From Octopus vulgaris (taxonomy: Eukaryota), in contig OX597830.1 in NCBI GenBank assembly GCA_951406725.2, positions 60,512,001 through 60,576,000 on the forward strand: DNA of 64,000 nt, in the 5' to 3' direction. A program made the translations under genes and the position numbers. The notes below the pieces were generated by a model. It had not been told where the DNA came from. It searched no databases and saw only the letters and a list, made by a program, of their open reading frames with translations. Of this stretch, positions 8,779 through 14,979 are shown piece after piece. The first letter of the stretch is position 1, and each line of letters opens with the position of its first letter.

Positions 8779-9150
8779 AAAGATTTTTGCCAACATAATA
8801 TGGCAGTTCTGGTTTAGGAAGGATGTTGCTGTAATTTGGCCCCAGGAGACATCGTCTCCAGCTAGCTATACGACACGATCTGAGTCCTTATATTTTCGAA
8901 CAAGGGAATCTAGCACCCCCTCCCCACTCAGCTCAAAACAATATCTGTGTATCGCGATTTTAGGGTTATTTCCCGATACACAGATATTGTTTTGAGCTGA
9001 GTGGGGAGGGGGGTGCTAGATTCCCTTGTTCGAAAATATAAGGACTCAGATCGTGTCGTATAGCCAGCTGGAGACGATGTCTCCTGGGGCCAAATTACAG
9101 CAACATCCTTCCTAAACCAGAACTGCCATATTATGTTGGCAAAAATCTTT
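8779..9150. mobile_element. Near-perfect long palindrome (fold-back or MITE-like element)
   Basis: Arms 8779-8954 and 8974-9150 (~176 bp) are reverse complements with one mismatch seen; 19-nt spacer. Confidence 0.9.
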
Positions 9151-9395
9151 TCTCCAAAGTACTGTTGCTGAATATCTCACTTGTGAGATTTAAAAATAGT
9201 AATTTTCCATTCTCAATTTTGCATTTTCAACTTCTATTTCTCCTATATTTCTACCTGTGGAATAAAATAACCTTTATATATGAATATATGTACTAGGCTT
9301 AAGAAATAATACCTGGGTTCGATTTGACGGCTAACATCCTTCAAAGCAGTGCTCCAGTAGGGCCGCAGTCGAACGACTGCAACAAGTAACAGAAT

Positions 9396-9581
9396 ATAGA
9401 CAGACAGACAGATAGATAGATAGATAGATAGATAGATAGATAGATAGATAGATAGATAGATAGATAGGTAGGTAGGTAGGTAGGTAGATAGATAGATAGA
9501 TAGATAGATAGATAGATAGATAGATAGATAGATAGATAGATAGATAGATAGATAGATAGATAGATAGATAGATAGATAGAT
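9396..9581. repeat. (GATA)n/(GGTA)n microsatellite following a SINE A 3' tail (about 9310-9395)
   Basis: Seen directly; the tail gtgctccagtagggccgcagtc...aacaagtaac matches the SINE A end. Confidence 0.9.
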
Positions 9582-9990
9582 TGACAGTCACGTTCCTATA
9601 CACAGGCCTAAGGAACGAAGCAGCATTTATAAGTGGTCTAACATAAAGCACCTTAGACGTCGTTCCATCCATCTTTAACTTATCAAGCAGCGTGTCTGAA
9701 CAGAAGGCAAATGAGTGCGAGAGAATTGATTGGGAAGAAACGGAATATAAGAACCGACGCTGACAGATTGCTAAGTAATTAATAGATTCTCAGCTGAAGT
9801 GCATGTGCAACACCTACAGAAAAAAAGCACACATCTGTATGCATGGAAGTGCAGAAATAGCGTGCAATTTAGTAAGAGTGCGTGAAGAACGTGAATTGTT
9901 GTATGCCTTGTGTAGGGGATACTCCGTAGCCATTACATATATCCCCCCTGTTTATTTCTAGCATTCTGTTGCTTCGGTTATTTTTATTCA

Positions 9991-10116
9991 TGTGTGTGTG
10001 TGTGTGTGTGTGTGTGTGTGTGTGTGTGTGTGTGTGTGTGTGTGTGTGTGTGTGTGTGTGTGTGTGTGTGTGTGTGTGTGTGTGTGTGTGTGTGTGTGTG
10101 TGTGTGTGTGTGTGTG
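9991..10116. repeat. (GT)n microsatellite
   Basis: Seen directly. Confidence 0.97.
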
Positions 10117-10323
10117 CGTGTGGTAAACGAGGTTACAGTATTTTTCTGAGAAATGCAGTTGCAAAAAATATTCGTGAAGTGTATACATGCGTATAACGTT
10201 GCCACACATAGACAAGCATAAATGTGGTATGTGTGTATGTATATGCACATACACACACACACACGCACACACACACACACACACACACACACACACACAC
10301 ACACACACACAAACACACACACA

Positions 10324-10620
10324 CATGAACTAATTTAAGCATATATGTATATGTTTGGATGTAAATAAACATATATACACACTCACACACACACACACAC
10401 ACACACACACACACACACACACACACACACACACACATGAACTAATTTAAGCATATATGTATATGTTTGGATGTAAATAAACATATATACACACTCACAC
10501 ACACACACACACACACACACACACACACACACACACACACACACATGAACTAATTTAAGCGTATATGTATACGTTTGGATGTAAATAAATATATATACAC
10601 ACTCACACACACACACACAG
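10324..10620. repeat. Three tandem ~110-bp units: ~57-bp unique core plus (CA)n
   Basis: catgaactaatttaagcRtatatgtataYgtttggatgtaaataaaYatatatacacact occurs three times, each followed by (CA)n. Confidence 0.9.
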
Positions 10621-11607: not shown

Positions 11608-12020
11608 CTCTTTTACTCTTTACTCTTTTACTCTTTTACTTGTTTCAGTCATTTGACTGCGGCCATGCTGGAGCACCGCCTTTAGTGGAGCAAATCGACC
11701 CCGGGACTTATTCTTTGTAAGCCCAGTACTTATTCTAGCGGTCTCTTTTTGCCGAACCGCTAAGTGACGGGGACATAAACATACCAGCATCGGTTGTCAA
11801 GCAATGCTGGGGGGACAAACACAGACACACAAACACACACACATACATATATATACATATATACGACAGGCTTCTTTCAGTTTCCGTCTACGAAATCCAC
11901 TCACAAGGCATTGGTCAGCCTGGGGCTATAGCAGAAGACACTTGCCCAAGGTGCCATGCGGTGGGACTGAACCCGGAACCATGTGGTTGGTTAGCAAGCT
12001 ACTTACCACATAGCCACTCC
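11608..12020 (-). mobile_element. SINE group A, near full length
   Basis: Reverse complement of the 19103-19535 copy: Pol III A/B-box head, CORE-like accttgggcaagtg, internal microsatellite, (AAGAGTA)n tail. Confidence 0.9.
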
Positions 12021-12908
12021 TTGATAAATGCAACTATACAAGCATATATGGTGGCTGCAAACTCATGTTCGACTATTGCCATCACTTGATCGAAGGTCTC
12101 ACCTACTACGACCAGCCATTTTTGTGATAGGCCTTTCATTTTTTCAAGCGATACCTGTGCATGATATTTTTTTATTGTGGAAAAAGGATTTGCACAAATC
12201 CAATCCCACTCTCTGAACCTGGATAACATAAACTCGAAAACAAGAACTAGTCTACATCATCGAATATTGTCAGTGTTGCAGGTTTTCTTTCAGAGTTTCC
12301 CCCTCCTAGACAGATGTTGTGACAACAACAGAGGGGCCTTCCAGTGGGCCAGCCGCGCCCCTCGACACCAACCCAGGAATTTCCACATCCCTGTGCATAC
12401 ATACATACATACATACATACATACATACATACACACGTACATATATTGTTGGATAACCGTTGACTGCTCATGAGCTCTTCCGCCTTCCGACAGGTCTTAC
12501 TTTTTGTCCTGCAGGGTGTCCAACAATCACCCTCCTCACCCCAGTTTAGTCACTGACGACCCGACCATCTAGTAGGTTCGCTTAAGAGCGACCTGACACA
12601 CATACACATATTCATACACACACACACACACACACACACACACACACACACACATATATTTTTGCTCGAAATGAGGAGTTGACAGACAGCCGACGACTGA
12701 TGTAGGGTCGTTCTCTGTAACTTGTCCTGCTTTCCATTTTTTCTCTCGTTGTTTTTTACACAGTTGGGTGACGTCCTGTACCCATATATGCATATGTGTA
12801 TACATACATACATACATATATATATATATATATATATATATATATATATATATATATGTATGTATGTATCAAATGAAATAAAATGAAAAACAGGACACAA
12901 AGGCTGTC

Positions 12909-13001
12909 GCGGTACACATGTTTCGAGCTTTATAAAACAACTTATTCTTACATCAATGCATAATCGACATAACAGATAGCTTAACAGCCCTCTTCAGCCG
13001 C
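12909..13001 (-). ncRNA. Type I hammerhead ribozyme motif (intact core, long loop II)
   Basis: Minus strand gcgg-CTGAAGA-gggct...agctc-GAAA-catgtg-TA-ccgc; lies in a ~170-bp segment between two (TA)n tracts. Confidence 0.78.
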
Positions 13002-14122
13002 ATGCAATTGCTACACCAAAGATTTGTATCACATTATGATATATATATTATATATATATATATATATATATATATATATATATATATATATATATATATG
13101 CATGTATTCTATCAGTGATAATACAGTCACTCTTTGTGTTTAATAATATGTATGTATGTATTTATCTATTTTTTGTATTACTTTATTAGTTTCCATTATT
13201 GGACTACAGTCAAGCTTGGGCACCGCCCTCAAGGGTTTCAATCGATTATGTTCGCTCCAGTACTTATCTCAGCAATATATAATTATGGAATGGCTTAATA
13301 TTACCTTTTCGATGAAAAGTTTTCTAATTTTGACGTACTGGTTTTCACTAGAATATAAGCAAACATAGACATTCAGAGATTAACATCAACATTCAGAAAG
13401 TGGTATTCCGAGTCAATTCTTTACTTGCCAATTACAACTAGTTCGTCCAAAGCAAATGTATATTTCTGTCATTTACTCGAGTATCGGGACAATGAAAGAT
13501 ATGGCACTGCTGAAGACCTCACTTCAGTCAGTCTTTATCTTTTTTAATCCGTGCGCCGTGCTTTAAGAGCGACAGCCGCCACCGGTTGTTAAAAACTGCG
13601 TCTCCGAAACCTCCTGATTGTGATTCCACCCAGACGCTCGCATATCGGCAACTGGGTGCCACTGACGACAAAGACCCCTTCATTCAGTCTTAATCAATAA
13701 GGGACATGATTTGGCCCCAATCAAGCGATAACGCCACATTTTCCCATCCTTTGCATTCTCACACAATAAAGGACAAAACCAGAAATCTTAAATTATTCTA
13801 CATTCTTCCCAACTTATGAGCTTCTAGAACTTCAATTCTTTATAAAATATTAATGTCTCTTATTTTAAGTCCTCAAGTTTAGTCAACCAGTATTTATTAG
13901 TCACAGTAAGGATTATCTATTCAACAAAGGAAAATCTCAAGATTTTAGCGATATGTCAGCAAAATACCGAGTCGGTAAGGTGTTTGGAACCTTACTGAAG
14001 ATTCATGAGGTCGTATCTTCCGCTAGTTGTATGTAGTTGTGTTTGAATATAACACCTTATTCTAGATTATTCTACTTGAGTTGTCAGATATAAGAAATAT
14101 TTGGCAATATTATCGATCTAAA

Positions 14123-14325
14123 GCGGCAAGCTGGCCGAATCGTTAGCATGCCGGACAAAATGCTTAGCGTATTTTGTCTATCTCTACTTCTGAGTACAAA
14201 TTAAGCCGAGGTCGATTTTCCCGTTTATCCTTACGTTGTCGATAAAATAAGTACCACTTAAGAATTGGGGTCGATGTAATCGGTTTACTCCCTCCGCCAA
14301 AATTGCTGGCTTTGCGCCAAATTTC
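14123..14325 (+). mobile_element. SINE group C copy, diverged
   Basis: gcggcaagctggccgaatcgttagc head and gtcgataaaataagtacc domain. Confidence 0.75.
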
Positions 14326-14692
14326 GATCTGCCCACTGGTATTGCTTATAGTTATTGGCTTTTAAATCATCCTCTTCATTCTATGAAAGAAAACAGAGCC
14401 AAGCGTCGGCTACCAACGAGAACCGCTTGAAACATGGGAAGCCACCACCAACATCAATCAAATGTAGATATGCACTGCAAGTATAGAAAACAAGCTTAAT
14501 GCTGTTGTTGAACGGGCATTTCGTTACCATCGTGCCTTTATTGCATACTTTATCAAGACCTACTGCCCTGTCATTATTTAAGAGAGTAGGGTTATCTGAG
14601 GGAGATTTGGTTTCTATTTATTGCGGGTTGAGCAACTGTGTAGCAGTCTTTGTCTCTTGTCTGGAAAATTGAATGTTTCTTTAAAATTTTCT

Positions 14693-14979
14693 GTGGTTTT
14701 ATACTGTCAACTTAACGTGACAGTCCTGTAAGGGAATTACCTCACCGTTGTTTAGCCCTAGGAAGCATCGACGTTTCTTGTCGGCCTTGACACATTTCCT
14801 GTGTCCTTATATATTTACGAAGGGGAGACAAATACCCCCCAACAGTTGTCTCCCCTTCATAAATATATAAGGACACAGGAAATGTGTCGAGGCCGACAGG
14901 AAGCGTCGATGCTTCCTAGGGCTAAACAGCGGTGGTGTAATTCCCCTACTGTCACGTTAAGTTGACAGTATACAACCAC
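14693..14979. mobile_element. Long palindrome related to 8779-9150
   Basis: Arms 14693-14831 and 14846-14979 are reverse complements with several mismatches and a small indel; tct flanks both ends. Confidence 0.88.

What the first reader, a model, noticed from the sequence alone, without database searches (positions are those of the whole stretch)
8779..14979. Two long palindromic elements share a covarying three-hairpin cassette
Seen: 8779-9150 (~176-bp arms, one mismatch) and 14693-14979 (~135-bp arms) are diverged, but each arm has the same order of parts. First hairpin tgcca-acataata-tggca versus actgtca-acttaacg-tgacagt; then tttRgccc; second hairpin ggaga-catcg-tctcc versus aggaag-catcgacg-cttcct; third hairpin gacac-gatct-gagtc versus gacac-atttcct-gtgtc; then cttatat...gaa..ggg. 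Stems change while pairing and loop motifs (AC..TAA, CATCG) persist. There is no shared terminal sequence or consistent TSD, unlike typical DDE MITEs. Inference: an uncharacterised fold-back family recognised through ssDNA/cruciform or RNA structure; tyrosine-recombinase (Crypton-like) or HUH mobilisation are untested possibilities.
Basis: partly seen in the sequence, partly recalled or inferred. Interest (0 to 1): 0.7.

Follow-up and report, generated by a model that had tools for sequence, protein, structure and literature searches.

The report
Penelope-type hammerhead retroelement fold-back stubs
These two mirror-image repeats are short copies of two abundant, related repeat families, and they were most likely pasted in from RNA by a Penelope-type jumping gene that copies one RNA end twice, head to head, which is a known footprint and probably not a new kind of DNA transposon.

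Summary
Each element has a further tail of about 60 bases on the right side only, and sits in an imperfect 12-13-base target duplication. An empty site in another organism's contig fixes E2's length at 351 bases. Both belong to high-copy families whose copies join their arms at different points. Other copies continue past E1's centre into a type I hammerhead motif. Both E1 arms carry the same rare variants, as expected if one RNA was copied twice. This matches the published footprint of Penelope-like retroelements: inverted 5'-truncated copy, direct copy, one-sided tail, target duplication, hammerhead. No coding partner was found, so a retrozyme-like parasite and the end repeat of a coding element cannot be told apart. 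The scan found this layout before on other DNA of this genome, and that note changed my reading. What remains new is modest: a conserved, covarying RNA cassette between ribozyme and predicted copying start sites. Helentron, MITE and Crypton readings fit worse.

The parts
8768..8779 (+). E1 left copy of target duplication (12 bases)
   Evidence: other copies of the host repeat join across E1 with a net skip of 444 bases (table 5)
8779..8974 (-).
   Evidence: other copies align to 8973-8974 and run on (records 7, 20, 29 and loose ends)
8945..8974 (-). 3' part of a type I hammerhead motif: helix II, GAAA box (AAAA in this copy), palindromic helix III, NUH = AUA, helix I 3' strand
   Evidence: minus-strand reading; CUGAUGA box and helix I 5' strand lie in the loose-end consensus behind 8974, and 8961 reads C in about 97% of pooled depth
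8975..9150 (+). E1 direct arm, starting about 4 bases before the predicted cleavage site; TATA-like ATATAAG 9036-9042, hairpins at 9043-9057, 9070-9084, 9124-9141
9151..9208 (+). E1 one-sided tail with hairpin 9174-9189 (right end uncertain by about 3 bases)
   Evidence: depth stays high to about 9219; three other copies stop at 9207-9211 (records 8, 16, 24)
9209..9223 (+). E1 right copy of target duplication (15 bases: one base replaced by four)
14688..14700 (+). E2 left copy of target duplication (13 bases, 2 mismatches); its last 8 bases are also the start of the inverted arm
14693..14842 (-). E2 inverted, tail-less arm, cut off before any hammerhead
   Evidence: family continues past 14839 (loose end)
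14843..14979 (+). E2 direct arm; TATA-like TATATAAG 14864-14871, hairpins at 14872-14888, 14898-14917, 14948-14969
14980..15038 (+). E2 one-sided tail (59 bases) with hairpin 15003-15015
   Evidence: empty site joins 14687 to 15039 in one 1038-base contig of run X16; high depth to about 15040 in X1 and X8
15039..15051 (+). E2 right copy of target duplication

Best explanation
E1 and E2 are fold-back insertions with a one-sided tail and a 12-13-base target duplication, from two related high-copy families, and they were most likely made by a Penelope-like (PLE) reverse transcriptase-endonuclease that copied the same hammerhead-bearing RNA end twice. Shown: layout, ends, copy abundance, variable centres, variants shared by both arms, hammerhead boxes in the E1 family. 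Inferred: the enzyme nicked both strands about 12-13 bases apart; each DNA end primed on the RNA, one at the tail end and one about 60 bases upstream; both cDNAs stopped early and were joined head to head, so the arms start at fixed points and end at variable ones. The conserved hairpins are predicted to be the RNA signal that the enzyme binds next to those start points. The template was either a non-coding retrozyme-like RNA (about 60%) or the end repeat (pLTR) of a coding PLE (about 40%); this was not resolved. Both copies are likely dead stubs.
For: One-sided tail in both elements; three long contigs (761, 1224, 1295 bases) stop at 14976-14979 and run into other DNA, as tail-less arms of other copies would (records 15, 19, 20). 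Empty site skips 351 bases. Duplications of 12 and 13 bases (11 of 13 matching has chance about 2e-5, but 8 of those bases are also element sequence). Centres vary: 8 of 15 shown joints (of 224) and 11 of 15 shown (of 26) link the arms at different points. At 4 mirrored site pairs (8820/9109, 8822/9107, 8838/9091, 8883/9046) both E1 arms carry a base held by about 1-2% of pooled depth. The hammerhead reading fits the PLE consensus CUGANGAH-G..C-GAAAN-palindrome-NUH (PMC4209133 supplement), with a 6-pair helix I. Published PLE layout: inverted 5'-truncated copy, tail on one end, 8-10-base duplications, TATA box in the pLTR (PMC3846280; PMC8557442). Purified PLE protein nicks and extends both strands and starts at two RNA sites that bound the tail (PMC11167929). 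A PLE remnant with the same layout lies in the window at 52.9-54.8 kb. Listed family variants avoid the stems: 1 of 15 in stems that cover 38 of 108 positions of E2's right arm, P 0.009.
Against: No reverse transcriptase or GIY-YIG ORF is linked to either family; no genome was held. The hammerhead is read across the window and a pooled loose-end consensus (60 contigs in X5, 42 in X6; agreement 0.76-0.80), not from one molecule; one extra base sits between helix II and GAAA, so the closing pair is unclear; Rfam finds no hammerhead here, nor at the other hammerhead-like sites of the window. No hammerhead was seen for E2. Tails are about 60 bases against the published 30-40. Both duplications are imperfect, and E1's empty sites are other copies of the host repeat, not the same locus. 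E2's inverted arm starts at 9 bases of target-RNA complementarity, whereas the in vitro start site was not homologous to the cut DNA. Joints laid at 80% likeness can be misplaced, and some X16 joints reflect a different subfamily. In the left arm 3 of 17 listed variants fall in stems, and only 40 of 57 variant rows were shown.
Confidence: 0.86

Rival explanations
1. Non-autonomous Helentron/Helitron2 elements (HINE type) with unusually long subterminal inverted repeats, moved by a HUH rolling-circle enzyme.
For: Asymmetry fits: in mite HINEs the repeats lie 2-4 bases from the 5' end and 38-60 from the 3' end, with a 3' palindrome 8-35 bases from the end (PMC4067079); compensatory changes in end hairpins are reported for Helitron2 (PMC3627910). 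E2 sits at a T run.
Against: HINE repeats are 12-15 bases and make no target change; here arms are 135-177 bases with 12-13-base duplications. Does not explain variable centres, rare variants shared by both arms or the hammerhead boxes. E1 is not in a T run.
Confidence: 0.06
2. Crypton-like or other tyrosine-recombinase element that integrates as a circle by short homology with the target.
For: Both targets read TTYTCAGTG and E2's target resembles the start of its arm. Ancient palindromic Eulor5/6 repeats are classed as Cryptons (PMC5753468).
Against: Two sites are too few for a target consensus. Animal Cryptons showed no terminal repeats (PMC3212892). No recombinase gene seen. Independent truncation of the two arms and the hammerhead boxes are not expected.
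Confidence: 0.04
3. PLE-made, but by fold-back self-priming on an antisense RNA or by later arm-to-arm conversion, not by priming from both DNA ends.
For: Self-priming on an antisense template was proposed for head-to-head PLE palindromes (PMC3846280). Conversion would also make arms share variants.
Against: Both arms start at fixed family positions 60 bases apart and end at variable ones, which two start sites explain directly. This rival changes the step, not the class; its weight is mostly inside the best explanation.
Confidence: 0.15
4. Ordinary MITE with terminal inverted repeats and a fixed target duplication.
For: Short, non-coding, palindromic, high copy. A 4-base overlap is seen at both junctions.
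Against: The repeats are not terminal on the right; the 4-base overlaps differ and extend to 12-13 bases; centres vary.
Confidence: 0.02

Closest known systems
EN+ Penelope-like insertions with inverted pLTR and tail (Adineta Pen2/Pen2a, PMC3846280; overview in PMC8557442)
   Same: Head-to-head inverted and direct copies, tail on one end, target duplication near 10 bases, TATA-like box, hammerhead in the repeat.
   Different: No ORF in these stubs; tail about 60 bases against 30-40; no coding partner identified.
Poseidon_Ac of Anolis (PMC11167929)
   Same: Two start points downstream of a hammerhead that bound the tail; uncleaved RNA as template (E1's inverted arm runs 24 bases past the predicted cleavage site).
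   Different: Hammerhead to arm end is about 170 bases here against about 85-90; E2's internal start has 9 bases of target complementarity; no ORF begins in the hammerhead (frame closes within about 30 codons, read across).
Metazoan non-LTR retrozymes (PMC7229834; bioRxiv 10.64898/2026.07.22.740005)
   Same: Type I hammerhead with short palindromic helix III, non-coding in the part seen, high copy, duplication longer than 4 bases, proposed PLE dependence.
   Different: No tandem monomers seen; these copies are shorter than one unit and inverted; circular RNA untested.
HINE/DINE-1 Helentron derivatives (PMC4067079) and Helitron2 (PMC3627910)
   Same: Asymmetric inverted repeats and a 3' hairpin.
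   Different: Short repeats, T-rich targets, no duplication as a rule, no ribozyme.

Membership tests
Autonomous EN+ PLE | ORF with PLE reverse transcriptase and GIY-YIG endonuclease | tested here: not met
   All three tail-ward frames of both elements have stops; no ORF of 110 codons or more lies within either. Not filed as an autonomous PLE.
PLE-type insertion (works like) | Inverted 5'-truncated copy next to a direct copy | tested here: met
PLE-type insertion (works like) | Tail on one end only (30-40 bases published) | tested here: met
   One-sided in both, but about 60 bases
PLE-type insertion (works like) | Target duplication of about 8-10 bases or more | tested here: met
   12 and 13 bases, both imperfect
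PLE-type insertion (works like) | Type I hammerhead in the repeat | tested here: inconclusive
   Boxes, helix I and helix III present for the E1 family in pooled contigs; helix II closing pair unclear; not seen for E2; no Rfam hit
PLE-type insertion (works like) | Homology to the pLTR of a coding PLE | not testable with these tools
   No genome held; no match to the PLE remnant in the window; three short motifs absent from the Naiad, Chlamys and Hydra supplement text (line breaks can hide matches)
Non-LTR retrozyme | Tandem 150-450-base units, each with a hammerhead | not testable with these tools
   Only sub-unit stubs in the window
Non-LTR retrozyme | Self-cleavage and circular RNA | not tested
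   No RNA run was laid
HINE/Helentron | Subterminal repeat near the 5' end and 38-60 bases from the 3' end, plus 3' hairpin | tested here: met
HINE/Helentron | Repeats of 12-15 bases; T-rich target; no target change | tested here: not met
   Arms 135-177 bases; 12-13-base duplications
MITE (DDE) | Inverted repeats at both termini and a fixed short duplication | tested here: not met
   Tail outside the right repeat is part of the insertion
Crypton | Tyrosine-recombinase partner sharing the ends | not testable with these tools
   None in the window's ORF list (read by eye); no genome held

The most novel reading that the evidence does not exclude
The TATA-like box, three hairpins and tail hairpin form a conserved RNA address that lets diverged non-coding octopus RNAs capture a Penelope enzyme and fixes both copying start sites 60 bases apart, with the inner start helped by base pairing to the cut DNA end. 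This would be a natural, covariation-backed map of the PLE recognition signal.
Probability: 0.3. Interest if true: 0.5.

Novelty: new member of a known kind. Interest (0 to 1): 0.27.

Why it matters
Mostly as a correction: palindromes like these look like MITEs or Helentron derivatives and would be filed as DNA transposons, when they are likely retrotransposition scars. The cassette is a small, testable candidate for the RNA structure a PLE enzyme recognises, which in vitro work has only mapped to a 172-base region (PMC11167929).

Tried and rejected
No whole genome held, so no genome-wide copy set. Viral scans: one chance hit in a phage tail-like gene without hairpins or palindrome, none. Metagenome scans: 0 hits with the narrow pattern; 120 loci with the broad one (scan stopped at 53 of 64 parts), none with an inverted copy, one with a loose hammerhead-like pattern upstream, and downstream scores up to 38 (median 21) against 31 for E1 versus E2; the top scorers show no cassette by eye. 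No further family copy in the window by blastn or nhmmer. Rfam gives only below-threshold hairpin matches on the elements. My hammerhead descriptor found none of the hammerhead-like sites seen by eye, only one other match, so it is not a usable test. The first pair count used a misplaced structure string and is void (redone in 71; hairpin 3 left out because the alignment offsets it). No RNA holder listed; no RNA run laid. An ORF starting near E1's arm end and running through the tail is possible with one family indel but is too short to weigh, and E2 lacks it. No A-to-G editing bias among the E1 variants shown. Sequence look-ups in earlier findings gave nothing. Dfam and Repbase could not be searched. 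I first favoured a Helentron reading; the duplications, centres and hammerhead boxes overturned it.
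Full report
Verdict. The two palindromes are real and related, but they are best read as fold-back stubs left by Penelope-type retrotransposition, a known footprint. The host looks like an octopus; that label comes from earlier scan notes and my recall of its repeats, and organism names were coded.

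Observation. Self-comparison confirms palindromes at 8779-9150 (E1) and 14693-14979 (E2). E1's arms match at 175 of 176 bases with one gap; E2's at 125 of 134 with a 5-base gap. Blastn does not link E1 and E2, but local alignment does: 0 of 2000 shuffles reach the scores of either arm pair, and each is the other's best non-self match in the window. Hairpins 1 and 2 are paired in 44 of 44 cells, and 3 of 11 pairs change on both sides. With two independent sequences this is weak. Hairpin 3 does not covary: its stem is the same in both families, and E1's mismatch is a rare variant. E2's tail-ward strand folds as the three hairpins with z -4.41 as RNA; E1's gives z -1.30. As DNA, the left arms fold no better than shuffles.

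True ends. Public contigs were laid on each element. On 14540-15140, 3826, 2531 and 984 contigs were laid from 3 runs; summed depth in X1 is 11,500-864,000 over about 14690-15040 against 54-86 in the adjacent flanks. Summed depth is not a copy number, but the family is clearly abundant. One 1038-base contig of organism E joins 14687 to 15039, an empty site that skips 351 bases. So E2 includes a 59-base tail on the right only. Three long contigs stop at 14976-14979 and continue in other DNA, as tail-less arms of other copies would. For E1 (4 runs, 8462-16,465 contigs each, flanking repeats included), depth stays high to about 9219, three other copies stop at 9207-9211, and 6 of 15 shown joints (of 224) skip the whole element, 4 of them by a net 444 bases; these are other copies of the older repeat that E1 sits in. 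Both tails hold an ATCTC/GAGAT hairpin, and one subfamily changes a pair of it on both sides (loose end at 14997, 14 contigs). The junctions show imperfect duplications: 8768-8779 against 9209-9223, and 14688-14700 against 15039-15051.

Signs of an RNA template. First, centres differ between copies: 8 of 15 shown joints and 11 of 15 shown (of 26) link the arms at different points. Some may be misplaced at 80% likeness or reflect another subfamily. Second, both E1 arms carry the same rare base at four mirrored site pairs, each held by about 1-2% of pooled depth. Third, E1's 19-base 'spacer' is family sequence. Other copies align to 8973-8974 and run on; the loose-end consensus there (60 contigs in X5, 42 in X6) holds, on the minus strand, UCUGUG followed by CUGAUGA. 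The window then gives A/GGG..CCC for helix II, the GAAA box (G in about 97% of depth, A in this copy), a palindromic helix III, AUA, and CACAGA, which pairs with UCUGUG. This fits the PLE hammerhead consensus in the supplement of PMC4209133, except for one extra base before GAAA that I cannot place from pooled tables. It is read across two sources, not from one molecule, and Rfam does not detect it in the truncated copy. E2 is cut off earlier; its family's loose end at 14839 is compatible with a cleavage site at a similar distance but does not show one.

How it likely works. PLE insertions typically have an inverted 5'-truncated copy next to a direct copy, a 30-40-base tail on one end, 8-10-base duplications, and a hammerhead and TATA-like box in the repeat (PMC3846280; PMC8557442). 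A purified PLE protein nicks and extends both strands, starts at two internal RNA sites that bound the tail, and uses uncleaved RNA (PMC11167929). I infer the same here: staggered nicks 12-13 bases apart, priming from both ends on one RNA, early stops, and a head-to-head join. This accounts for fixed outer ends, variable centres and shared variants. E1's inverted arm runs 24 bases past the predicted cleavage site, so its template would have been uncleaved. The cassette lies between ribozyme and start sites and is predicted to be the enzyme's binding signal; listed variants avoid its stems in E2's right arm (1 of 15, P 0.009) but less so in the left arm (3 of 17), and 17 of 57 rows were not shown. 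A PLE remnant in the window shows the machinery existed in this genome: weak RVT_1 (E 0.002) and GIY-YIG (E 0.0011) matches below Pfam's cut-offs, Atlas hits at 0.96-0.97 to HTH_animal clusters, an inverted 3' copy and a hammerhead-like motif. It is not homologous to E1 or E2.

Against and unresolved. No coding partner was found, so a retrozyme-like parasite and the end repeat of a coding PLE remain open. Tails are longer than published ones. E2's inner start coincides with 9 bases of exact complementarity to the target (chance about 5e-6 for one register), unlike the non-homologous start seen in vitro; E1 shows no such match, so this is one case. Both targets read TTYTCAGTG, too few to call a preference. 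The Helentron reading fits the asymmetry well (PMC4067079; PMC3627910) but not the duplications, long arms, variable centres or hammerhead boxes.

Novelty. Class and footprint are known, and animal retrozymes were recently argued to be non-autonomous PLE sequences (bioRxiv 10.64898/2026.07.22.740005). Octopus PLE families are listed in the supplement of PMC8557442; three short motifs of these families were not found in its text. Searches for octopus with Penelope and hammerhead or with Helitron and palindrome listed no description of this cassette; Dfam and Repbase were not searchable, so the families may already be catalogued. The scan noted the same layout on other DNA of this genome; note e1-9524073 gave me the PLE lead, which I then tested on these elements. 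Those notes are not independent support.

What I saw of each paper. Passages: PMC5753468, PMC3627910, PMC4067079, PMC3846280, PMC8557442 (47, plus supplement searches), PMC6962438, PMC8969392. Sections: PMC3212892 abstract and sections 5 and 8; PMC7229834 passages and section 14. Parts of the whole text: PMC11167929 parts 1-2 of 4; PMC4209133 parts 1-2 of 4 and supplement passages, one file not searched; the bioRxiv preprint parts 1-3 of 5, supplements not seen. Other papers appeared only in search listings.

Scores. Best explanation 0.86; interest 0.27; new member of a known kind.

Noticed in passing
window 13549-13682 (-): Full-length U11 snRNA match, 64.6 bits against a gathering score of 39, the only Rfam match above threshold in the window; gene or pseudogene not tested.
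   Followed up: partly
window 52900-54818: 5'-truncated Penelope-like element on the minus strand with RT and GIY-YIG remnants, an inverted copy of its 3' end (54627-54818 against 52940-53116), a hammerhead-like motif and a short tail.
   Followed up: partly
window 8509-8651: Very high-copy repeat just left of E1 with a hammerhead-like motif (CUGUUGA, 4-pair helix, GAAAC).
   Followed up: partly
window 36373-36428, 36436-36582, 57564-57739, 17834-17934, 33392-33518: Five more palindromes without the cassette; they may be fold-back stubs of other families.
   Followed up: no
window 56800-57424: Arms of about 220 bases around a 185-base spacer whose plus frame reads FINRMKWKVHY, which recalls (from memory) the start of PLE proteins.
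   Followed up: partly
window 16031-19536: Mariner remnants (Pfam Transposase_1 and HTH_48) with several inverted similarities.
   Followed up: no
L004, L022, L033, L061 and others from Ga0307512, Ga0307514, Ga0307515: A high-copy repeat (69 of 120 loci share one exact motif) begins about 8 bases before the searched hairpin-3 motif and continues with TTCTGATTGG; unrelated to E1 or E2 downstream, probably a chance match.
   Followed up: partly
window 39537-39938 (+): Weak reverse transcriptase fragment (RVT_1, E 0.02).
   Followed up: no
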